In this document: positions 1,863 to 12,697 of the stretch, in pieces
Layout: the number at the start of each line of letters is the position of its first letter
How positions within the stretch are numbered: position 1 is the first letter of the stretch
Source of the DNA: a virus
Taxonomy: Duplodnaviria > Heunggongvirae > Uroviricota > Caudoviricetes
Direction: 5' to 3' (one strand)
IMG/VR virus record: IMGVR_UViG_2711768015_000005
DNA length: 41,351 bases
Notes under the pieces: generated by a model
The model's database searches: none
What the model was told of the DNA's origin: nothing
Seen by the model: only the letters and a program-made list of their open reading frames with translations
Made by a program: the position numbers and the translations under genes

Positions 1863-3950
1863 ATGTTTGCTTCAGTTAAAGAACTGGTTGGATTACCGGG
1901 GATGCCGGGAACGGAGCAAGGCGTTCGCTATTCAATCAGGAAGTATGCAACCAGCGAAACCAGCAGACGCCGCAAGAAAGGCGCTAAAGGTTTTGAATAC
2001 AGCATTGACTGTTTACCTGAAGTGACACAGCAGGCATTACGCGAACGTTATGCCCTGCAACTGATGACGCAAAAAGCCGATGAATCACCGGCTCCGGTGG
2101 TGACAAAGGCCAGACGCTCGTCTGCCGTGGTTGATGCGGTGGAGGCATATCGCGGATCACCACAACTGATGGTCGAACGCCTCAATGCCCTGACTGAAAA
2201 CCAGCGCCAGGTGGCAGACGCACGCATTGCGATCGTCAGTGAGGTGCTGAAATTCACGCAACAACCCGGTTTCAGCTGCGCTAAAGCTATCCGGTTCCTC
2301 GTTAACAGCCTGGCACGATCACAACTGGACGAGCGCATTGTGGCAATGGTTGAGACGGCGAACGCCAAAAAGGGAAACAGCCGCGCGTTGAGTGAAATCA
2401 CGCTGAAACGCTGGATTGCGGCCTTTAACAAGGCACAGAACGCCGCTGAACGCCTGCTTTTACTGGCACCGGGTAAACGCCAGGAAATAAAAGCCGAAGA
2501 TATTAACTGGCTGCCCGAATTTCTGGCGCAGTATCGCCAGTCAAACGGCCGACCAATGACCGAGGCTTACGAGGATTTTGTTGCTGAATGGCAGCACCGG
2601 CACGCTGATGAGCCTTATATGCTCGATATCATGCCCTCTTATGACACCATTCGCCGCGCAATGAAGAAACTGCCGGAAGTGGTGAAACAAAAAGGCCGGG
2701 TAACTGGCAGTGAATACCGTCAGCTTGAGGGATTCACGCGCCGCGACTGGTCCAGAATGCCGGTGAATTATGTCTGGATTGGTGACGGTCACGGCATGAA
2801 GCTGAAATGCGCGCACCCGGTTCACGGGCGGCCATTCGCACCGGAAGTGACCTTTGTTATCGACGGTGGCACGCGCTTTGTGGTGGGCTGGAGCCTTGAC
2901 CTGGCTGAAAATGTTTTCGCCGTAGCCGGTGCCATACAGCACGGTATTCGCCATCATGGCAAACCGTTTCTGTATTACTCGGATAATGGCTCCGGGGAAA
3001 CCGCCGACGTCCTGGATAAGGAGATTGTGGGGATACTGCCACGACTGGGGATTAATCACCCGACAGGGATTGCCGGTAATCCGCAGGGACGGGGCATTAT
3101 CGAACGGCTTAACCGCACATTACCGATGCGCATAGCCCGTAAATACCGCACCTATTTCGGGAAAGGAGCAGATCGCGAGACGTTACGTAAAACCAACCGC
3201 GATTTACGCTCGGCATTCAGTGCCCTGCAACAGGGCAAACGGCTGAACGCCCGGCAGCAGTCAGCGATGCGTGATTTACCGTCCTGGTCTGAACTGATTG
3301 ATGCCATTCGTGACGGTGTTGAGTGGTACAACAACCGGCCGCACGATGAATTACCCATGAAGCCGAACGGTAAACATTACAGCCCGGCGGAGTTCAGAAA
3401 AAAACGCCTGGCGGAAGAGGACACGGAAATTGAATGGCTGTCCGATGTTGAACTGCGGGATATGTTCCGGCCGATGGTGGAGCGCCCTGTAAGACGCTGT
3501 GAAATACGCTGGCTGAATAATATTTACTACGCGCCCGAGCTGCGTGACGAGCATGGCCGTAAGGTACTTATCAGCTATGACATTCATGATGCCGAACGAA
3601 TTACCGTGCGCCGCCCGGATGGCAGCGTGATTTGCGAGGCGGTATGGGACGGCAATAAACGCGAAGCCTTCCCTGTCAGCGCGGAATACTACAAACAGCA
3701 GCAGCGCCTTAAAGGCATGCGTAAACGCGCAGAGGAAAAAATCCGTGATGCCGAGGATGAGGTTGTCAACGTGCTGGAGCACAAGCCGCAGGAGCCCTGG
3801 CTGGAAAACATATACCGCCCTGTGGGTAATACGGTGACCGTTCAGCAACCGGTCGCTGACGATGAACCTGATGAAGAATACGAGCGTAATTTCCAGCGGG
3901 GATTGCAACTGCTCGAAGCGAAATTAAAAGAAAGTGATCCGCTGGCCTGA
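1863..3950 (+). CDS. A: Mu-type DDE transposase A
   Basis: 695 aa immediately after ner; central rve-like core with acidic residues in VWIGDGHGMKL ... YYSDNGSGE; size and position as MuA. Confidence 0.9.
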   Translation: MFASVKELVGLPGMPGTEQGVRYSIRKYATSETSRRRKKGAKGFEYSIDCLPEVTQQALRERYALQLMTQKADESPAPVVTKARRSSAVVDAVEAYRGSPQLMVERLNALTENQRQVADARIAIVSEVLKFTQQPGFSCAKAIRFLVNSLARSQLDERIVAMVETANAKKGNSRALSEITLKRWIAAFNKAQNAAERLLLLAPGKRQEIKAEDINWLPEFLAQYRQSNGRPMTEAYEDFVAEWQHRHADEPYMLDIMPSYDTIRRAMKKLPEVVKQKGRVTGSEYRQLEGFTRRDWSRMPVNYVWIGDGHGMKLKCAHPVHGRPFAPEVTFVIDGGTRFVVGWSLDLAENVFAVAGAIQHGIRHHGKPFLYYSDNGSGETADVLDKEIVGILPRLGINHPTGIAGNPQGRGIIERLNRTLPMRIARKYRTYFGKGADRETLRKTNRDLRSAFSALQQGKRLNARQQSAMRDLPSWSELIDAIRDGVEWYNNRPHDELPMKPNGKHYSPAEFRKKRLAEEDTEIEWLSDVELRDMFRPMVERPVRRCEIRWLNNIYYAPELRDEHGRKVLISYDIHDAERITVRRPDGSVICEAVWDGNKREAFPVSAEYYKQQQRLKGMRKRAEEKIRDAEDEVVNVLEHKPQEPWLENIYRPVGNTVTVQQPVADDEPDEEYERNFQRGLQLLEAKLKESDPLA

Positions 3951-6993: not shown

Positions 6994-7527
6994 ATGATTG
7001 ATGCAAAAGTGCTTGAAGGGGTTAAAAACTGGCTGTGTATTTATGGCCGCCTGACCTGCGGTGTACTGGCTGAAAAAATGAATATGCCGCCATCCTCCAT
7101 GGTTTATTTTCTGCGTGATGCGGTTGATGCAGGCGTGCTGACGGAATGTAACGGTTTTTATGATATTCCGCGTCCCCGCCCGGTGCAGCCGGTTCGTCGC
7201 AAATGCAGCCAGGAATCTGCGGCTGATGATGTTCAGTGGTGCGGCTTCAGAAAATCCCTGCCATGGATTGAGGGGCATGATATTCCGTCGATGGCGTGGG
7301 AATTTGCTCAGGGCGTTCTGACCTGTGAAACCGTTTATGTGGTGGCTGAAGTTGATGAGCAGGCCATGAAAGAAGGCGTGCCCCAGTTTGTGATGGCGTA
7401 TATCGACATACGCCTGGGCGTCATTATCTGCGGTTTAAGCGGCTGGAATATCACTGAACATGTTCTGCGCTACCTGATTGTTGACCGGACAGCAGCGCCT
7501 GCCGGGATATCTGCGGAGGTGGCGTAA
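6994..7527 (+). CDS. Hypothetical early protein
   Basis: 177 aa ORF, co-directional; no recognised motif. Confidence 0.45.
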   Translation: MIDAKVLEGVKNWLCIYGRLTCGVLAEKMNMPPSSMVYFLRDAVDAGVLTECNGFYDIPRPRPVQPVRRKCSQESAADDVQWCGFRKSLPWIEGHDIPSMAWEFAQGVLTCETVYVVAEVDEQAMKEGVPQFVMAYIDIRLGVIICGLSGWNITEHVLRYLIVDRTAAPAGISAEVA

Positions 7528-8042
7528 TGTTCTTTAAAACATCAAACCCTTCCGCGCTGGCTGCGTGGCAAAAATACCAGCAGGACTGCCAGAAAGTTAA
7601 GGATGAGGCAAAACGCCTTGAGGCCGTGCTGAATGTTGCGTGCCGGTCGGTATTTGTATCCGGTATCAGTGGATTTTACTTTAAGGGACTGCGTTTTACG
7701 GAGGACAAATATCCTTTTCATCGCGACTTATGGCGAAAACCGACTGCGTCGAATGGCTGGAGCTGCACACCGCGCACATCACGTATCCCTAAAACCCTGC
7801 GTGTTGCCTCTGATGAACTGAACAGTCTGTGGCGTGAATATTCGCCCGTCACGTATGCCAGAACCGATGCGCTGTTGTTCTGGTTGGGTATTGATTTCTC
7901 GGCAATCCTGTTTGGCCCTGTGAAGTGGTTCTGCGTTGACGATGTGATTTACCTTCAGTGCGGCGTAAAACCCGCAAAACAGAAAATGACCGAAATACTG
8001 TCTGATGAGTTTTATGCTGCTGAAAAGCGAGTCAGGGGGTGA
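7527..8042 (+). CDS. Hypothetical early protein
   Basis: 171 aa ORF, start overlaps previous stop. Confidence 0.45.
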   Translation: MFFKTSNPSALAAWQKYQQDCQKVKDEAKRLEAVLNVACRSVFVSGISGFYFKGLRFTEDKYPFHRDLWRKPTASNGWSCTPRTSRIPKTLRVASDELNSLWREYSPVTYARTDALLFWLGIDFSAILFGPVKWFCVDDVIYLQCGVKPAKQKMTEILSDEFYAAEKRVRG

Positions 8043-8045
8043 TGC

Positions 8046-8597
8046 ATGATGAAATTACAACCCATGGGACTAAAAGGTCGCGCCCCCGCTCATGTCCGTC
8101 CGTGGACACCTGAAGAAGATGCGCTGCTGATTGCGCTTTATTCATCCACCCCGGTTAAGGATATTGCTGCCAGAATAAAAAGAACTGTCTGGGCTGTATA
8201 TAACCGGACTGGTGTATTGCGCAGTTCATACCCGGAGTTACTGAAATATAAACACCCAAGATTTACACCTGATGAAGATAAGTTTATTCGAAAAAATGCC
8301 AGAACAATGACCTGCCAGCAAATGGGAGAATATCTCGGACGTAATAAAGATTCTGTCAGATGTCGGGCAGGAATGATTGGTGCTGGATTAACAAAGTGCG
8401 GAGAGTTACGCCCCGGCACGCGCATATCTGATGATGATGTACGTCTTATACGTGAGCTGCGTGATTCCGATTACCCACGCCGTCTGTCATTCCGGGAAAT
8501 TGGCGAAAAGTTTGGAATATCTGAACATTCTGCTCACGCAGTTTATTACCGTCGCCGGACTGCCGAGGACGCTGTATTACGGGAGTTAACGCCATGA
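8046..8597 (+). CDS. DNA-binding protein with three tandem Myb/SANT-like helix-turn-helix repeats
   Basis: 183 aa; three ~55-aa repeats each opening with a W/F-T-P-E/D-E-D-x-x-L signature (WTPEEDALLIAL, FTPDEDKFIRKN, ISDDDVRLIREL). Confidence 0.5.
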   Translation: MMKLQPMGLKGRAPAHVRPWTPEEDALLIALYSSTPVKDIAARIKRTVWAVYNRTGVLRSSYPELLKYKHPRFTPDEDKFIRKNARTMTCQQMGEYLGRNKDSVRCRAGMIGAGLTKCGELRPGTRISDDDVRLIRELRDSDYPRRLSFREIGEKFGISEHSAHAVYYRRRTAEDAVLRELTP

Positions 8598-8926
8598 TAA
8601 CGACCTTATTTGTTGAATCAGATGAACCTCTTGTGTGTGCCGCCGGAATGCCGCTCTGTGGCGGAACGCTGACCGGCGTTTATTTCGGGGATTTGCGCGG
8701 TTATCCCTGGCATTCACTGGATGACGCATTTCCGCCTGATATGGAGGCTGTCGTGCTGATTGTTCAGTATGGTGACCAACAGGAACTGCGCATCGGCCAT
8801 ATGGGGTATGAAGGCTTTTTTATTGATGAAGAAACCGGAGCCTGCCTTGAAGATGAGGACGGACAGGTGACGCACTGGTGCCATCTTTCGGCCTTGCCGG
8901 AATTACAGGGGATACATAATGGATGA
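8594..8926 (+). CDS. Hypothetical early protein
   Basis: 110 aa ORF, start overlaps previous stop. Confidence 0.4.
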   Translation: MITTLFVESDEPLVCAAGMPLCGGTLTGVYFGDLRGYPWHSLDDAFPPDMEAVVLIVQYGDQQELRIGHMGYEGFFIDEETGACLEDEDGQVTHWCHLSALPELQGIHNG

Positions 8927-9062
8927 GCAAATTGTTGAATGTCCCACCTGTGGAAATGAGGACCCGGAGTATCTGAAAGAGTGCCCACATTGTGGTGAGA
9001 TAAAATGTAACCACTGCGATATGGGCGACGACACTGCATGTATAAATTGTGAGGATGAATAA
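8919..9062 (+). CDS. Small zinc-ribbon protein (four CxxC pairs)
   Basis: 47-aa ORF absent from the >=60 aa track: MDEQIVECPTCGNEDPEYLKECPHCGEIKCNHCDMGDDTACINCEDE; ATG 8919 overlaps the upstream stop. Confidence 0.45.
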   Translation: MDEQIVECPTCGNEDPEYLKECPHCGEIKCNHCDMGDDTACINCEDE

Positions 9063-9063
9063 T

Positions 9064-9351
9064 ATGGAAAAAGAAATCAAATTTGCGCCTAAATCTATCG
9101 ACGAAGAACTGGCTAAAATCGGCATGCTTGAACGTATGCGGGACATTATCGAATATGCGATAAAAGAAAATCTTGCAGCCAGAGAAGCCCTTTTGATAAT
9201 GGAGCGGGAGATTAACCTGATTAAGGATGCTGTATCTCTGGATAATAAAATAGCCCGCGAGGAATACGTTCGCCGTAGGCTCGGTGTTGATGGTTCAGCA
9301 ATTCTTACATCTGAACATTATGCAAAAATTTTTAATCTTTTTCAGCGGTAA
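9064..9351 (+). CDS. Hypothetical early protein
   Basis: 95 aa from ATG 9064 (MEKEIKF...), directly after the zinc-ribbon ORF stop. Confidence 0.45.
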   Translation: MEKEIKFAPKSIDEELAKIGMLERMRDIIEYAIKENLAAREALLIMEREINLIKDAVSLDNKIAREEYVRRRLGVDGSAILTSEHYAKIFNLFQR

Positions 9352-9571
9352 TCCCCATACAGGCCCGGAGATTGTCGAAATGCCAGTCGGTATTAATATA
9401 TGAGCCATCCTGGATATCTTCTGCATTTTCCGGGGTAGAGTTTTTTTGAGCGAGATTGATAATATGTATTGCCTCCTCACGGGAAATCAGCCCCTTATCG
9501 AACAGGGTTACCATAAGATTTCCAGCCATTGTGAATGCGGCAACATCAAGTGCATTTTTTATATCTGACAT
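9332..9571 (-). CDS. Hypothetical protein encoded antisense to the early operon
   Basis: 79 aa minus-strand ORF with AAGGA SD 7 nt upstream of ATG; convergent 20-bp overlap with the preceding + strand ORF. Confidence 0.45.
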   Translation of the reverse strand: MSDIKNALDVAAFTMAGNLMVTLFDKGLISREEAIHIINLAQKNSTPENAEDIQDGSYINTDWHFDNLRACMGITAEKD

Positions 9572-9599
9572 AGATTTTTCCTTTTATGTTAATTGACAT

Positions 9600-9629
9600 G
9601 GCGGTGCGGTAACACCGCCCATTTTTTAT
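9600..9629 (+). terminator. Rho-independent terminator-like hairpin upstream of gemA
   Basis: GGCGGTG-cggtaa-CACCGCC followed by CATTTTTTAT. Confidence 0.5.
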
Positions 9630-9641
9630 GGAGCCACGATA

Positions 9642-10154
9642 ATGAATCGCGCTTCCCTGATTACCTTAATACATGTCGCAAAACGCGATCTACAGCTTGA
9701 CCATGATACCTATACATCCGCGCTGCTGGCAGCCACCGGCAAATCCAGTTGCCGTGATATGTCACCCGGTGAGTTATCCCGCGTGCTGGATGTTTTCAAA
9801 AAACGCGGTTTTAAAGTGCGTCAGAAGCCGGTTAACCGGGCCTTAAAACCGGGTACGGTGACCGCCAAAATTCGCGCCATCTGGAAAGTGATGCACCGGC
9901 AGGGATTTATCTCTGATGGCGGGGAAACGGCCCTTAACCGCTGGGTGAAATCGCAGACGGCCGCGCAGAACGACGGCGAAGGTGTGGCTAACTGGCAGTG
10001 GCTGGAGCAACAACCCGCGCTGGCCTCTGATGTGCTGGAGCGTCTCAAACGCTGGCACCGCCGCAAAATGCTGGCAGCCCTGGATATGTCGGAACGTGCA
10101 GTGATGAGTTATGAGCGTGTTTGCAGGCTGTATGAAAAATCATTCCCCCGTTAA
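9642..10154 (+). CDS. gemA: GemA-like protein (Mu gp16, DUF1018 family)
   Basis: 170 aa; N-terminus MNRASLITLIHVAKRDLQLDHDTYTSALLAATGKSSC parallels Mu GemA. Confidence 0.75.
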   Translation: MNRASLITLIHVAKRDLQLDHDTYTSALLAATGKSSCRDMSPGELSRVLDVFKKRGFKVRQKPVNRALKPGTVTAKIRAIWKVMHRQGFISDGGETALNRWVKSQTAAQNDGEGVANWQWLEQQPALASDVLERLKRWHRRKMLAALDMSERAVMSYERVCRLYEKSFPR

Positions 10155-10158
10155 CCCC

Positions 10159-10190
10159 AAATCCCGCCACAGCGCGGGATTTTTATTTTA
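10159..10190 (+). terminator. Rho-independent terminator between gemA and the Mor/C-family gene
   Basis: ATCCCGC-cacag-GCGGGAT followed by TTTTATTTTA. Confidence 0.6.
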
Positions 10191-10224
10191 AACTTGCCCT
10201 GTGTAATGATGACCGGAGGCGGGT

Positions 10225-10647
10225 ATGGCTGAAACACAGATGAGCATGTTTGGTGACAGCGAACAGCTGCACGCGCTGATTGACCGTCTGGATGATATTC
10301 CTGATGATGAGCTGAAAAAGAACTGGCCCGGCACGCTGCGGGACCTGGTTGATGTGATCAGTGCTGAACTGCACCGTCAGGGGATTGAACCTGCTCAGGC
10401 GGGAATGCTTGCCCGTAAGGTTGCAGCCGCACAGGCCGGGTACATGGGCGGGCGTGGTTATTATCTCCCGGTCGGTGAATCCCTTTTCACCGAACTGCGC
10501 AATAATGAAATTTTTTCCCGCTGGAGCCAGGGCGAAAAAATTGAAACCCTGCGCCGCCACTACCAGATGTCAGAGACGCAGATTTACTCCGTTATCCGCA
10601 ACCAGCGTCGCCTGCATCAGGAACGCACGCAGCCACGGCTTTTCTGA
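10225..10647 (+). CDS. mor: Mor/C-family transcriptional activator
   Basis: 140 aa; C-terminal HTH region YYLPVGESLFTELRNNEIFSRWSQGEKIETLRRHYQMSETQIYSVIRNQRR resembles Mu Mor/C; it is the only family member in the window and sits directly before the lysis gene. Confidence 0.8.
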   Translation: MAETQMSMFGDSEQLHALIDRLDDIPDDELKKNWPGTLRDLVDVISAELHRQGIEPAQAGMLARKVAAAQAGYMGGRGYYLPVGESLFTELRNNEIFSRWSQGEKIETLRRHYQMSETQIYSVIRNQRRLHQERTQPRLF

Positions 10648-10718
10648 TATTCCGCAAATCCTGCCCCCTTTTCCTCACGGTTACGCTGACTCAGAGAACA
10701 CCATGAGACAGCGTAACA

Positions 10719-11219
10719 ATGCCAAAACTCCCCGCACCCCTGCGTAAAAAGCTGATTGCCCTTGTTCTGGCCGGAGCCGGGACGTTCACCATTGCCACGC
10801 ACTACACCGGCTACTGGGAAGGGAAAGAAAACACCACGTACATTGATCCCACCGGCACCCCCACCATCTGTTACGGCCATACCGGCCCGGATGTGAAACC
10901 GGGGATGACAAAAACTGATGAAGAGTGTCTGGAGCTGCTGGAAAAGGACATGAAATGGGCCTTTGCGGCTATCGATCGTCATGTTCAGGTGCCGCTTACC
11001 CGTGGTCAGACGGTGGCGCTGGCCTCCTGGATTTTCTGGGCCGGTGAAACGAACTTTCGCAACTCCACGCTCCTGCGCCTTATCAATGCCGGGCAGATGC
11101 CCGCGTCCTGTAAGCAGTATATCCGCTGGATTTATTCAAAGGGGGTAAAACTCCCCGGTCTTGAGGCCCGCCGTTCGGCGGATGAATGGTTATGTCGTTA
11201 CGATTTGCCGAAAGTCTGA
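10719..11219 (+). CDS. lys: Endolysin, phage lysozyme with N-terminal signal-arrest-release (SAR) segment
   Basis: 166 aa; hydrophobic LIALVLAGAGTFTIA followed by a lysozyme-type region YWEGKENTTYIDPTGTPTICYGHTG. Confidence 0.8.
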   Translation: MPKLPAPLRKKLIALVLAGAGTFTIATHYTGYWEGKENTTYIDPTGTPTICYGHTGPDVKPGMTKTDEECLELLEKDMKWAFAAIDRHVQVPLTRGQTVALASWIFWAGETNFRNSTLLRLINAGQMPASCKQYIRWIYSKGVKLPGLEARRSADEWLCRYDLPKV

Positions 11220-11292
11220 ACCGCTTCTGGCGACCGCTCATGATTGCGCTGCTGTGTGCCGTTGTGCTGCTGCGGGGTGTGCTGTGTCTGCG

Positions 11293-11682
11293 GTGAACAA
11301 TCCCTTACCGGCCCTGATTGCCGGAGGCTGTATGGCGGCGCTGGGGGTGATGAGCGTGCTGGCTGCCGTGGTATGGGGAATGCACCAGAAGACGCAGCGC
11401 CTTGAGGACAATAATCATGTGCTTGTGCGTGAACGGGACGAAGCCCGTCTGGTGCTGGCAAACCAGCAACGCACCCTGCAACTCATTTCACAAATCAGCA
11501 AGGCGGCCACGAATGAAAAACAGCAGAACATGCAGCACAGCGAGGAACAGCAGAGCATTGTCCGCCGGTCACTGGCAACGGTGCCTGCTGCCGCTGTGCC
11601 TGTGCCTGATGATGTGGCTGACCGGGTGCGGCGGGCCGTCTGTGAAATACGTGCCGGTGAAGCCGGTGCCGATCCCCGCTGA
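11293..11682 (+). CDS. Putative i-spanin (Rz-like); start uncertain
   Basis: N-terminal TM segment LPALIAGGCMAALGVMSVLAAVVWG then charged coiled-coil-like region; directly after the endolysin; the frame is open from 11161. Confidence 0.5.
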   Translation: MNNPLPALIAGGCMAALGVMSVLAAVVWGMHQKTQRLEDNNHVLVRERDEARLVLANQQRTLQLISQISKAATNEKQQNMQHSEEQQSIVRRSLATVPAAAVPVPDDVADRVRRAVCEIRAGEAGADPR

Positions 11683-11884
11683 ATGGCTGGCTGACTGCCT
11701 GGTCCCTCCCGCGCCGCAGCCGTTCACGTTTGGTGCATCGGTCACTTACAACCTGCAACTGCTGGCGGTGATTAAAAACTGCAACGTGGACAAGGCCAGC
11801 ATCCGCCGTCTGGAGACACAGCGACAGCATGAATTTACTGATATGGCCGGAACGACTGCTGTTCCGGCAGGAAAGACGAAGTAA
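11513..11884 (+). CDS. Putative o-spanin lipoprotein (Rz1-like), overlapping the i-spanin in another frame
   Basis: Lipobox-like LTGC after a hydrophobic stretch; proline-rich; begins inside the i-spanin frame and extends beyond it. Confidence 0.5.
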   Translation: MKNSRTCSTARNSRALSAGHWQRCLLPLCLCLMMWLTGCGGPSVKYVPVKPVPIPAEWLADCLVPPAPQPFTFGASVTYNLQLLAVIKNCNVDKASIRRLETQRQHEFTDMAGTTAVPAGKTK

Positions 11885-11894
11885 GGAAAAAGGT

Positions 11895-12122
11895 ATGGAT
11901 GATTCAGATTGTGCTCAGGCAGTCATGGAGCGTGCAACAGAACGCGCCCTTTGTGACCGGCTGACACGTAAGCGCCGGGTGGCGGAGACACCGGGCAGGC
12001 GTGTATGCGCGGACTGCGGGGGTGACATTCCGGCTGCCCGTCTGGTTGCCGTGCCGGATGCCATCCGTTGTGTGAACTGCCAGAACATCATGGAGGCCGG
12101 TCATGTGGGTCAGCATCGTTAA
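11895..12122 (+). CDS. TraR/DksA-family C4 zinc-finger protein
   Basis: 75 aa from ATG 11895; CADCGGDIPAARL...IRCVNCQ four-cysteine motif. Confidence 0.6.
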   Translation: MDDSDCAQAVMERATERALCDRLTRKRRVAETPGRRVCADCGGDIPAARLVAVPDAIRCVNCQNIMEAGHVGQHR

Positions 12123-12414
12123 AGATTATGTCGTGCCGATCCTGTCGGCAACGGCCACAGCCGGGGGGATCTTCATGGCGCTGATGCGCAAAACCTTTGT
12201 CCCCCGCGAGGCCTTTGAAAAACTCTCCGACCGGGTTGAGCGGGTGGAGAGCCGGATTTCCGGCCTGCCCACGCAGCAGGAGGTGAACAGACTCAATATC
12301 GAAATCACCACCCTGCGCGGTGAGCTTAAGGCCACCAATGCCACCCTGAAATCCGTCTCCCATCAGAACGAACTGCTGCTGGAGCAGGCTGTAAGGAAAA
12401 AACACAATGAGTGA
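12103..12414 (+). CDS. Membrane-anchored coiled-coil protein (Mu-like, DUF2730-type)
   Basis: 103 aa; N-terminal TM VVPILSATATAGGIFMAL then coiled-coil-like region. Confidence 0.5.
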   Translation: MWVSIVKDYVVPILSATATAGGIFMALMRKTFVPREAFEKLSDRVERVESRISGLPTQQEVNRLNIEITTLRGELKATNATLKSVSHQNELLLEQAVRKKHNE

Positions 12415-12697
12415 TTTCATTACTGAAGATCAGCGTCTTGTCATTCTGCGGTCGCTGGCGGATTACAACGGCGAACTGGGCGAATCCGTGCTTCAGGACT
12501 GCCTGGATGATTACGGTCACCGCGTGTCCCGCGACACCGTTCATACCCACATTGCCTGGCTTGCCGAGCAGGGACTGGTGCGTAAGCGCACGCTTGTTAA
12601 CGGTTATTTCATCGCTGAACTGACCGGCCGGGGTCAGGATGTGGCGGAAGGCCGCGCCACCGTTCCGGGTGTGAAGAAACCACGCGCAAGGGGGTAA
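12407..12697 (+). CDS. Hypothetical protein (Mu gp26 position)
   Basis: 96 aa ORF between the membrane protein and the gp27-like gene. Confidence 0.5.
   Translation: MSDFITEDQRLVILRSLADYNGELGESVLQDCLDDYGHRVSRDTVHTHIAWLAEQGLVRKRTLVNGYFIAELTGRGQDVAEGRATVPGVKKPRARG

What the first reader, a model, noticed from the sequence alone, without database searches (positions are those of the whole stretch)
9332..9571. Minus-strand gene embedded in the otherwise unidirectional early operon
A 79-aa ORF with a good SD (AAGGA) runs opposite to all neighbouring early genes, overlaps the 3' end of the upstream + strand ORF by 20 bp, and is followed on the + strand by a terminator-like hairpin (9600-9629). Mu has no counterpart at this position. 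It could be an accessory insertion or an antisense regulator of early-to-middle read-through.
Basis: partly seen in the sequence, partly recalled or inferred. Interest (0 to 1): 0.45.

Follow-up and report, generated by a model that had tools for sequence, protein, structure and literature searches.

The report
Overlooked leftward gene in Mu-like prophages
The backward-facing 79-codon ORF is a real, conserved small phage gene that phage Mu and its relatives also carry at the same spot, paired tail-to-tail with the neighbouring early gene and ending at its own terminator hidden inside that neighbour's codons; its function is still unknown and natural deletion phages live without it.

Summary
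The ORF at 9332-9571(-), its AAGGA ribosome-binding site, the 20-bp overlap and the 9600-9629 hairpin are all there. The ORF is a real gene. It matches PHROG 32893 over its full length. It belongs to a family of 67-119-aa three-helix proteins, and RefSeq already calls it "hypothetical protein".

"Mu has no counterpart" is wrong. Mu (88 aa), SfMu (SfMu_16) and D108 (119 aa) carry diverged homologues in the same slot and orientation. The Mu reference record instead annotates a + strand ORF (gp15/Mu_54) there, which is not conserved.

In every locus examined the gene converges on, and overlaps, a gp14-family gene (PHROG 6075). The two vary together as one mosaic cassette, independently of gemA.

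After the stop codon, inside gp14's codons, lies a hairpin plus U-tract on the small gene's strand. It is kept by compensatory changes and by codon choice, which points to a separate leftward transcription unit. No promoter could be identified.

The 9600-9619 hairpin is invariant upstream of gemA, even in phages that lack the small gene.

Function is unknown. vB_YpM_3 and vB_YpM_23 lack the gene and still lyse and lysogenise, so it is accessory. My best guess, which is inferred, is a prophage-phase modulator paired with gp14.

The parts
9332..9571 (-). Small gene: 79 aa, 8.8 kDa, pI 4.5. Predicted three helices (2-25, 31-44, 62-71).
   Evidence: PHROG 32893, E = 1.3e-45; family and alignment A4; AF2 pLDDT 80, pTM 0.67; RefSeq WP_001280088.1, hypothetical protein.
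9579..9583 (-). Shine-Dalgarno AAGGA, 7 nt before the ATG.
   Evidence: Read. AAGGA/GAGG-type motifs sit at the same place in the homologous loci (sequences).
9243..9281 (-). Intrinsic-terminator-like element of the small gene, embedded in gp14 codons (I-A-R-E-E-Y-V-R-R-R-L). The hairpin is at 9281-9252 and the U-tract AUUUUAUUA at 9251-9243. It starts 50 nt after the stop codon. The window's copy has one A.C mismatch and is the weakest of the family (-9.7 kcal/mol).
   Evidence: present in 15 loci, 11 distinct sequences; 88.8% of cells paired against 39-49% when the partner is slid; 3 compensatory pairs; 127/143 cells pair on the minus strand against 111/143 on the plus strand; synonymous-codon shuffles: z = -2.5 to -5.5 in 11/11.
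9064..9351 (+). Convergent partner gene of the Mu gp14 (E15) family, PHROG 6075. Its last 20 bp overlap the small gene's 3' end.
   Evidence: the partner is PHROG 6075 in all loci tested, including the distant L022, L023 and L026; the two genes co-vary as one cassette.
9600..9629 (+). Hairpin GGCGGTG-N6-CACCGCC plus T6, 12 nt before the gemA start codon. The stem is invariant in Mu, D108, SfMu, vB_YpM_3 and the Klebsiella-type loci. It marks the right edge of the variable cassette. A good T-tract is present only in this prophage type.
   Evidence: a single exact copy in the window.
9642..10154 (+). gemA (context). It is divergent from the small gene; the two start codons are 70 bp apart.
   Evidence: PF06252, E = 1.8e-28; same arrangement elsewhere.
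9441..9447 (-). A7 run in codons 42-44. Database variants shifted here read on in the alternative open frame (9295-9480).
9703..9732 (-). The only sigma-70-like match upstream of the small gene (CTGCCA-18-TATCAT, 9/12), inside gemA codons. It is weak and not conserved as a promoter in relatives.

Best explanation
SHOWN. 9332-9571(-) is a real protein-coding gene. It is this prophage's allele of a small-protein family (67-119 aa). The family has an N-terminal helical hairpin with the motif fD(V/I)AaF.lAGNl..L..KG.I..eEA..II and a C-terminal helix (WHLDNL type). Mu, SfMu, D108 and many enterobacterial Mu-like prophages carry it at the same position and in the same leftward orientation. It always converges on, and overlaps by 4-98 bp, a gp14-family early gene. 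The two genes are exchanged together as a roughly 0.5-kb mosaic cassette. The cassette runs from just inside gp14's 5' end to an invariant hairpin upstream of gemA. The small gene has its own ribosome-binding site. About 20-80 nt past its stop it has a hairpin plus U-tract on its own strand, written into gp14's codons and maintained by codon choice. This indicates a separate leftward transcription unit whose RNA is antisense to the last 100 nt or so of gp14 mRNA.

INFERRED. (1) It is transcribed leftward mainly when rightward early transcription is repressed, that is in the prophage, and is opposed by head-on early transcription after induction. (2) The acidic three-helix protein acts by binding another protein. 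The most likely partner is its co-varying neighbour gp14, or whatever gp14 acts on. It would then be a non-essential modulator with an allele-specific antagonist/partner pair, not a core part of the early-to-middle switch. (3) Its RNA may also damp leaky early transcripts that head for gemA-mor.
For: Coding:
- Full-length PHROG hit.
- 26 representatives at <=50% identity with conserved motifs in both helical regions.
- AF2 confidence rises from pLDDT 64 to 80 with the family alignment.
- Mu versus L011 dN/dS is 0.31 in this frame, the lowest of the six frames.
- AT and GC skew flip sign across the gene.
- PGAP, the SfMu annotation and the Mu_3F6 annotation all call it.

Same slot in Mu and D108.

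Constant context:
- 19 fetched or annotated loci (L028).
- The partner is always PHROG 6075.

Cassette behaviour:
- Mu and D108 flanks are 92-100% identical, while the cassette is 26-56% identical.
- Small-protein identity tracks gp14 identity (Spearman 0.42) and not GemA identity (-0.07).
- Of 32 gemA loci from other species, only one has gp14, and only that one has the small gene and the hairpin.

Terminator:
- Present in all 11 distinct sequences.
- Compensatory pairs and 88.8% pairing against 39-49% for slid controls.
- More pairs on the minus strand, with 23 G-U pairs that become A.C mismatches on the plus strand.
- The fold is more stable on the minus strand in 10 of 11 sequences.
- Hairpins are far more stable than synonymous recodings of the same gp14 peptide (mean z = -4.35 minus strand, -2.87 plus strand).
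- The Mu copy coincides with the TransTermHP 'terminator' annotated inside gp14 in AF083977.

Dispensability:
- vB_YpM_3 has a clean deletion between TGAT repeats that removes the ribosome-binding site and the first 68 codons or so.
- All four Yersinia Mu-like phages lyse at 37 C and lysogenise at 26 C (PMC10434027, abstract).
Against: - No promoter could be identified. There is only one weak 9/12 match inside gemA codons in the window, and nothing is positionally conserved.
- No expression data of any kind were available, so prophage-phase expression is pure inference from orientation.
- The proposed gp14 partnership rests on linkage and co-variation, which simple physical linkage inside one recombination block would also produce.
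- The terminator lies in a conserved gp14 peptide motif. In the shuffle control the covariation score was reached in 10 of 500 shuffles, which is modest.
- The window's own hairpin is the weakest (-9.7 kcal/mol) and folds equally well on the + strand.
- Frameshifted variants are frequent among database clusters. They could be decay or sequencing error.
Confidence: 0.55

Rival explanations
1. A prophage-expressed 'moron'-type accessory protein that benefits the lysogen, for example by superinfection exclusion or anti-phage defence. In this reading gp14 is either unrelated or is the early-expressed escape factor that protects the phage's own lytic growth, as with sieB/esc.
For: - The gene is opposite to the lytic operon and has its own terminator.
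- It is dispensable in natural deletion phages (PMC10434027).
- Alleles diverge very fast between phages that are otherwise 92-100% identical.
- Close alleles show more nonsynonymous than synonymous codon changes (11 versus 5), clustered in the linker.
- GC is 39-42% against 51-61% in gemA.
- In the Pseudomonas transposable phage Fc02, overlapping opposite-strand genes near the repressor both confer exclusion (PMC9936078, abstract).
Against: - No PADLOC hit for any of 18 family members.
- No membrane segment is apparent: helix 1 carries charged and polar residues (D9, N18), by my own reading of the sequence.
- The protein has no recognisable effector domain.
- The position is fixed next to gp14 in all loci, which is unlike typical morons that come and go singly.
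- gp13 and gp14 share the low GC.
Confidence: 0.2
2. The act of leftward transcription, or the antisense RNA, is the function. Convergent transcription and pairing with the 3' end of gp14 mRNA would attenuate or process early transcripts before gemA-mor. This would set the timing of the early-to-middle switch or silence leaky early transcripts in lysogens.
For: - The gene lies head-on to the early operon immediately before gemA-mor in most loci.
- The terminator guarantees roughly 70-130 nt of antisense overlap with gp14 mRNA.
- In this prophage a + strand terminator-like hairpin precedes gemA and another follows it.
- Low-level Pe transcription in Mu lysogens is documented (PMC3820752).
Against: - The protein sequence is conserved under purifying selection across DNA that no longer aligns, so the RNA alone does not explain the locus.
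- In L023 and L026 other genes separate it from gemA, while gp14 stays adjacent.
- Deletion phages still switch between lysis and lysogeny (PMC10434027).
- No promoter was found.
Confidence: 0.15
3. The ORF is a chance or shadow ORF and the region is non-coding leader DNA, or the real gene is on the + strand as annotated for Mu gp15.
For: The Mu reference records annotate a + strand 55-aa gp15 (Mu_54) antisense to the Mu homologue. The gp15 frame shows dN/dS of 0.50 between Mu and L011, second lowest of the six frames, as expected for the frame whose third codon positions coincide with those of the minus-strand gene.
Against: - The window has no + strand ORF over 46 aa here, and none with an ATG start.
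- gp15 hits no PHROG, whereas the minus-strand proteins of Mu, D108 and the window hit PHROGs 8747, 38610 and 32893 and cross-hit each other.
- Family-wide conservation, a confident fold, a ribosome-binding site and a terminator all lie on the minus strand.
Confidence: 0.04

Closest known systems
Mu 'F-134' putative ORF (AAA32405.1 / Q38493 in M64097), SfMu_16 (AIY32315.1), Mu_3F6 VUD37876.1; PHROGs 8747, 38610 and 32893
   Same: Same slot between gp14 and gemA. Same leftward orientation. Same N-terminal motif and three-helix prediction. Same tail overlap with gp14 and the same downstream hairpin.
   Different: Only 19-29% identical to the window protein. Lengths are 88, 119 and 134 aa as annotated. 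PHROGs splits them into three families. None has a described function or any expression data.
Mu gp15 (Mu_54, AAF01092.2), the + strand gene annotated at this position in AF083977 / NC_000929
   Same: Occupies the same DNA interval in Mu.
   Different: Opposite strand. No counterpart in the window or in D108. No PHROG hit. Weaker purifying-selection signal than the minus frame. It is probably the shadow of the minus-strand gene.
Lambda OOP RNA / cII and other convergent antisense units in temperate phages (from general knowledge, not tested here)
   Same: A short leftward transcript ending at an intrinsic terminator and overlapping the 3' end of a rightward early gene.
   Different: OOP is non-coding and about 77 nt long. 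Here the transcript encodes a conserved protein. RNase III cleavage and any effect on gp14 are untested.
Morons of temperate phages (Hendrix-type, from general knowledge) and the olg1 / gene 10 opposite-strand exclusion genes of the Pseudomonas transposable phage Fc02 (PMC9936078)
   Same: A small gene set against the lytic operon with its own terminator. It is dispensable, fast-evolving and lower in GC.
   Different: Fixed position and fixed partner gene in all loci. No promoter found. No sequence similarity to olg1 or gene 10 was tested. No exclusion phenotype is known.
SHOCT / SHOCT-like helical hairpin (PF22746, PF20612)
   Same: The L..L..KG.I(S/T)..E(A)..I helix-turn-helix hairpin pattern. 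Two of 18 family members give weak Pfam hits (best E = 0.0014).
   Different: The window protein itself gives no hit. The hits are sub-threshold. The SHOCT domain has no defined function.

Membership tests
PHROG 32893 / Mu-family leftward small protein (with PHROGs 8747 and 38610) | Full-length profile match | tested here: met
   E = 1.3e-45, residues 1-79 against profile positions 1-82 of 82; the Mu and D108 proteins cross-hit PHROG 32893 (E = 6e-4 and 5e-7).
PHROG 32893 / Mu-family leftward small protein (with PHROGs 8747 and 38610) | N-terminal motif D(V/I)AaF..AGNl..L..KG.I..eEA..II and C-terminal helix (WHLDNL type) | tested here: met
   Alignment A4. The window has LDVAAFTMAGNLMVTLFDKGLISREEAIHII and DWHFDNLRACM.
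PHROG 32893 / Mu-family leftward small protein (with PHROGs 8747 and 38610) | Position: opposite to the early operon, 3' end overlapping a gp14-family (PHROG 6075) gene | tested here: met
   Window. Relatives.
PHROG 32893 / Mu-family leftward small protein (with PHROGs 8747 and 38610) | Hairpin plus U-tract after the stop codon, inside gp14 codons | tested here: met
   The window copy is the weakest (-9.7 kcal/mol, one mismatch).
Moron (autonomous accessory gene in a prophage) | Own promoter | tested here: inconclusive
   Only one weak 9/12 match in the window, and none conserved in relatives.
Moron (autonomous accessory gene in a prophage) | Own terminator | tested here: met
Moron (autonomous accessory gene in a prophage) | Present or absent between otherwise similar phages | tested here: met
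   vB_YpM_3 and vB_YpM_23 lack it; Mu, SfMu and vB_YpM_5/6 have it.
Moron (autonomous accessory gene in a prophage) | Expressed from the repressed prophage | not testable with these tools
   No transcript data were available.
cis-antisense regulatory RNA (lambda OOP type) | Non-coding transcript | tested here: not met
   It encodes a conserved protein under purifying selection.
cis-antisense regulatory RNA (lambda OOP type) | Overlaps the 3' end of a convergent mRNA and ends at an intrinsic terminator | tested here: met
   20-bp CDS overlap, with the terminator 50-88 nt further into gp14.
cis-antisense regulatory RNA (lambda OOP type) | Antisense-dependent cleavage or repression of the target | not testable with these tools
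   This needs RNA work.
Mu gp15 (Mu_54), + strand | Homologous + strand ORF between gp14 and gemA | tested here: not met
   No + strand ORF over 46 aa and none with an ATG start in 9352-9641. gp15 has no PHROG family.
SHOCT-like domain (PF22746 / PF20612) | Pfam match above the gathering score | tested here: not met
   The window protein has no hit. Two of 18 relatives have weak hits (best E = 0.0014).
Known anti-phage defence or toxin-antitoxin proteins | Match to a PADLOC or NCBIfam model | tested here: not met
   none for any of the 18 members.

The most novel reading that the evidence does not exclude
gp14 and the leftward small gene form a previously undescribed, allele-specific two-gene module of Mu-like phages. 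One member would be made from the rightward early transcript and the other from a leftward, prophage-phase transcript. The two proteins would antagonise each other, for example as an exclusion or abortive factor and its early-expressed antidote, or as a lytic effector and its lysogenic inhibitor. Their mRNAs would pair tail-to-tail. The terminator of one gene is encoded in the conserved peptide motif of the other, which locks them together through recombination. A corollary is that the reference annotation of phage Mu carries a wrong-strand gene (gp15) at this locus.
Probability: 0.2. Interest if true: 0.65.

Novelty: new member of a known kind. Interest (0 to 1): 0.42.

Why it matters
Mu is a textbook phage whose early region is described as one rightward operon. 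The comparative evidence here points to a conserved leftward gene with its own terminator inside that operon. The Mu reference record appears to annotate the wrong strand at this locus (gp15). The locus also shows a terminator maintained inside another gene's codons by codon choice, and a fast-evolving two-gene cassette of the kind often tied to phage-phage or phage-host conflict. It gives a concrete experiment in a tractable system: mutate the start codon (the ATG lies in DNA that is intergenic for the + strand), then do strand-specific RNA-seq on Mu cts lysogens. On the other side, the gene is already called 'hypothetical protein' by PGAP and PHROGs, it is dispensable, and nothing found here reveals its activity.

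Tried and rejected
Searches that gave nothing usable:
- Pfam, NCBIfam and PADLOC scans of the window protein and of all 18 family members gave nothing above threshold.
- A profile search of PDB sequences had a best E of 0.12.
- Foldseek against BFVD gave no hit with E <= 0.001. The second-ranked hit was the Mu F-134 ORF itself.
- The afdb50 fold library was unavailable.
- Rfam on 9000-10300 gave nothing relevant.

Ideas tested and dropped:
- Small gene as a paralogue of gp14: hhalign probability 1%. Rejected.
- Sigma-70 promoter upstream of the small gene: scanned in 8 loci with no conserved site. Hand inspection for extended -10 elements was also inconclusive.
- The GGCGGTG-N6-CACCGCC hairpin as a repeated operator: there is a single exact copy in the window. 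Its stem never varies, so covariation cannot say whether it acts as RNA or DNA, or on which strand.
- Membrane helix for residues 7-25: rejected on my own hydropathy estimate and because relatives carry charged residues there.

Tool and library limits:
A narrower GemA alignment worked.
- Literature searches found no paper that discusses this gene.
- The paper cited in the Mu record for the 'semi-early promoter' (PMID 9454718) is not held.
- P0037, from a 2-kb contig next to an HTH_3 gene, is a marginal hit (E = 8.5e-4) and was not used as evidence.

Full report
**Setting.** The window is a Mu-like prophage of E. coli. Genes from about 6994 to 12697 run rightward. They include a Mu gp11-like gene, a gp14-family gene (9064-9351, PHROG 6075), gemA (9642-10154, PF06252), mor (10225-10647, PF08765) and a lysozyme. 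The same sequence occurs at 93-100% identity in 14 of 5,426 complete E. coli genomes and in a Mu-like insert of an Stx1a phage record.

**Observation.**
These are ORF 9332-9571(-) of 79 aa, AAGGA 7 nt before its ATG, a 20-bp overlap with the + strand gene ending at 9351, and a 7-bp GC-rich hairpin at 9600-9619 followed by T6.
- Seventy-nine open codons at 40% GC have a chance probability of about 0.006 per frame.
- AT and GC skew change sign across the ORF, as expected if the coding strand switches.

**It is a real gene, with relatives in Mu.**
- The protein matches PHROG 32893 end to end (E = 1.3e-45). RefSeq calls it hypothetical protein WP_001280088.1.
- Reading the same slot in Mu and D108 showed leftward ORFs of 88 and 119 aa with the same N-terminal motif.
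- The Mu ORF was listed as putative 'F-134' in the old left-end record M64097. It is annotated in SfMu (SfMu_16) and in Mu_3F6.
- The current Mu records instead annotate a 55-aa + strand ORF, gp15/Mu_54, antisense to it.
- A profile of window-, Mu- and D108-type proteins found 26 representatives at <=50% identity in 1.84 billion proteins. They share the N-terminal helical hairpin and a C-terminal WHLDNL-type helix.
- With that alignment AlphaFold2 gives a three-helix model: pLDDT 80, pTM 0.67, helices 2-25, 31-44 and 62-71.
- PHROGs splits the family into 32893, 8747 (Mu type) and 38610 (D108 type). These cross-hit each other, while Mu gp15 hits nothing.
- Between Mu and a 66%-identical relative (L011), dN/dS is 0.31 in the leftward frame. 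That is the lowest of the six frames; the gp15 frame gives 0.50.
- The window and D108 have no gp15-like + strand ORF.
- The statement that Mu has no counterpart is therefore wrong, and gp15 is probably a shadow ORF.

**Constant partner, variable cassette.**
- In every locus fetched for six family members, the small gene is the only leftward gene in the early region. Its 3' end overlaps, by 4-98 bp, a gene of about 90-120 codons.
- That partner is always PHROG 6075 (gp14). This holds even in the distant L022, L023 and L026; in L023 and L026 other genes lie between the small gene and gemA.
- Mu and D108 are 92-100% identical on both sides. They are only 26-56% identical from about 30 nt inside gp14 to the hairpin before gemA.
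- Across 11 loci, small-protein identity correlates with gp14 identity (Spearman 0.42) and not with GemA identity (-0.07). Phages with >= 93% identical GemA have small proteins only 19-28% identical.
- Among 32 gemA-bearing prophages from other species, one (a Klebsiella record) has gp14. Only that one also has the small gene and the GGCGGTG hairpin.
- The unit is therefore a two-gene convergent cassette that is accessory within Mu-like phages.

**A terminator written into gp14's codons.**
- On the small gene's strand, 19-77 nt past its stop, 14 of the 15 loci examined have the same hairpin followed by a U-rich run (L022 has a different hairpin 84 nt downstream). These give 11 distinct sequences, with folds of -9.7 to -20.3 kcal/mol.
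- In the window this is the hairpin at 9281-9252 plus AUUUUAUUA at 9251-9243.
- The Mu copy is the 'terminator predicted by TransTermHP' that the Mu record places inside gp14.
- The stem lies in the gp14 peptide motif A-R-(D/E)-x-(I/F/Y)-(V/I)-R-R-(E/R)-L. It is kept even where the peptide changes, as in D108 (A-H-N-N-I-V-C-R-E-L).
- 88.8% of cells pair, against 39-49% when the 3' partner is slid. Three pairs show compensatory double changes.
- As minus-strand RNA 127/143 cells pair, including 23 G-U pairs that are A.C mismatches on the plus strand. As plus-strand RNA 111/143 pair. The minus-strand fold is the more stable one in 10 of 11 sequences.
- I recoded the same gp14 peptide with random synonymous codons, 2,000 times per sequence. 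The real minus-strand hairpins are more stable than these recodings in all 11 cases: z = -2.5 to -5.5, mean -4.35, against -2.87 for the plus strand.
- Codon choice in gp14 is thus tuned to keep a hairpin that works best on the small gene's strand, where the U-tract lies.
- Caveats: the sequences are related, the shuffles used uniform codon choice, and the window's own copy is the weakest.

**The 9600-9629 hairpin.**
- Its stem GGCGGTG/CACCGCC is invariant in the window, Mu, D108, SfMu and the Klebsiella-type loci. It is also present in vB_YpM_3, which lacks the small gene.
- It sits just before gemA's ribosome-binding site. It coincides with the right edge of the variable cassette. In Mu it lies inside the interval annotated as the 'semi-early promoter'.
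- Only the window type, and the distant L023, has a good T-run after it.
- It therefore belongs to the gemA leader and not to the small gene. Because the stem never varies, I cannot tell whether it acts as RNA or DNA, or how.

**What could not be found.**
- No promoter: there is one weak match inside gemA codons in the window and nothing positionally conserved.
- No paper discusses the gene.

**Dispensability.**
- vB_YpM_3 and vB_YpM_23 lack the gene.
- In vB_YpM_3 the sequence jumps from the TGAT at gp14's stop to a second TGAT just before the hairpin. This removes the ribosome-binding site and the first 68 codons or so.
- The paper describing these phages reports that all four, with or without the gene, lyse at 37 C and lysogenise at 26 C (PMC10434027, abstract).
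- The gene is therefore not needed for plaque formation, for lysogeny or for the switch between them in that host.

**Mechanism.**
- Shown: a conserved protein-coding gene with a ribosome-binding site and terminator of its own. It is convergent with gp14, overlaps it, and is inherited together with it.
- Inferred from orientation: it is transcribed when rightward early transcription is low, that is in the prophage, and is opposed by it after induction. Its RNA is antisense to the end of gp14 mRNA.
- Inferred from co-variation, small size, acidity (pI 4.5) and lack of any catalytic or DNA-binding signature: the protein works by binding a partner, most plausibly gp14 or gp14's target, as a non-essential modulator.
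- Rivals:
  - a moron-like exclusion or defence factor. This fits the rapid diversification, including 11 nonsynonymous against 5 synonymous codon changes between close alleles, clustered in the linker;
  - a mainly RNA-level brake on read-through into gemA-mor;
  - a shadow ORF, which the comparative data essentially exclude.

**Verdict.** The gene is a member of an already catalogued but uncharacterised phage family. The new points are the unification of the Mu, D108 and window types into one family, the fixed convergent pairing with gp14, the terminator embedded in gp14's codons, and the likely wrong-strand annotation of Mu gp15.

Noticed in passing
window 10159-10192 (+): A strong terminator-like hairpin (AAATCCCGC-CACAGC-GCGGGATTT plus TTATTTT; the 10155-10195 stretch that contains it folds to -13.5 kcal/mol) sits in a 70-bp gap between gemA and mor. 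In Mu the two genes overlap. Together with the hairpin plus T6 before gemA, rightward transcripts in this prophage meet two terminator-like sites before mor.
   Followed up: partly
window 9441-9447 (A7 on the minus strand); alternative frame ORF 9295-9480(-): Several database variants of the small protein (P0005, P0008, P0009, P0010; also truncated or shifted variants of other alleles: P0016, P0020, P0021, P0026, P0031) are frameshifted. Some shift at the A7 run or a nearby C run and read on in a second open frame to 88-92 aa. This could be sequencing error, prophage decay or slippage.
   Followed up: partly
L001 2867-3034 (+) = Mu record AF083977 7960-8127 (gp15 / Mu_54): The annotated Mu gp15 lies antisense to the conserved 88-aa leftward ORF (L001 2803-3069). 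It has no PHROG family and no counterpart in D108 or the window. It is probably a wrong-strand call in the reference Mu records.
   Followed up: yes
L007 about 1440-1570 (vB_YpM_3, MT374852) compared with L001 2860-3090: vB_YpM_3 carries a clean deletion of about 220 bp between two TGAT repeats. It removes the small gene's ribosome-binding site and most of its codons, and leaves gp14 and the gemA hairpin intact. vB_YpM_23 appears to be the same.
   Followed up: yes
L001 about 2590-3095 compared with L002 (Mu versus D108): Identity falls abruptly from 92-100% to 26-56% and returns exactly at the GGCGGTG hairpin. The hairpin may therefore serve as a recombination boundary for cassette exchange.
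   Followed up: partly
P0017 (4,745 aa) and P0035 (276 aa): A very long protein matches the N-terminal motif of the family 23 times. A 276-aa secreted-looking protein repeats L..LV.KG(V/I)(L/I)(T/S)QEQADQ(I/L)K. The helical hairpin motif is therefore a widespread SHOCT-like repeat unit outside phages.
   Followed up: no
window 8046-8597 (+) and 8919-9062 (+): The early region carries a 183-aa protein with weak Myb/SANT-like and HTH hits (PGAP: SANT/Myb-like DNA-binding domain-containing protein), and a 47-aa four-cysteine zinc-ribbon protein (PHROG 5584) directly upstream of gp14.
   Followed up: no
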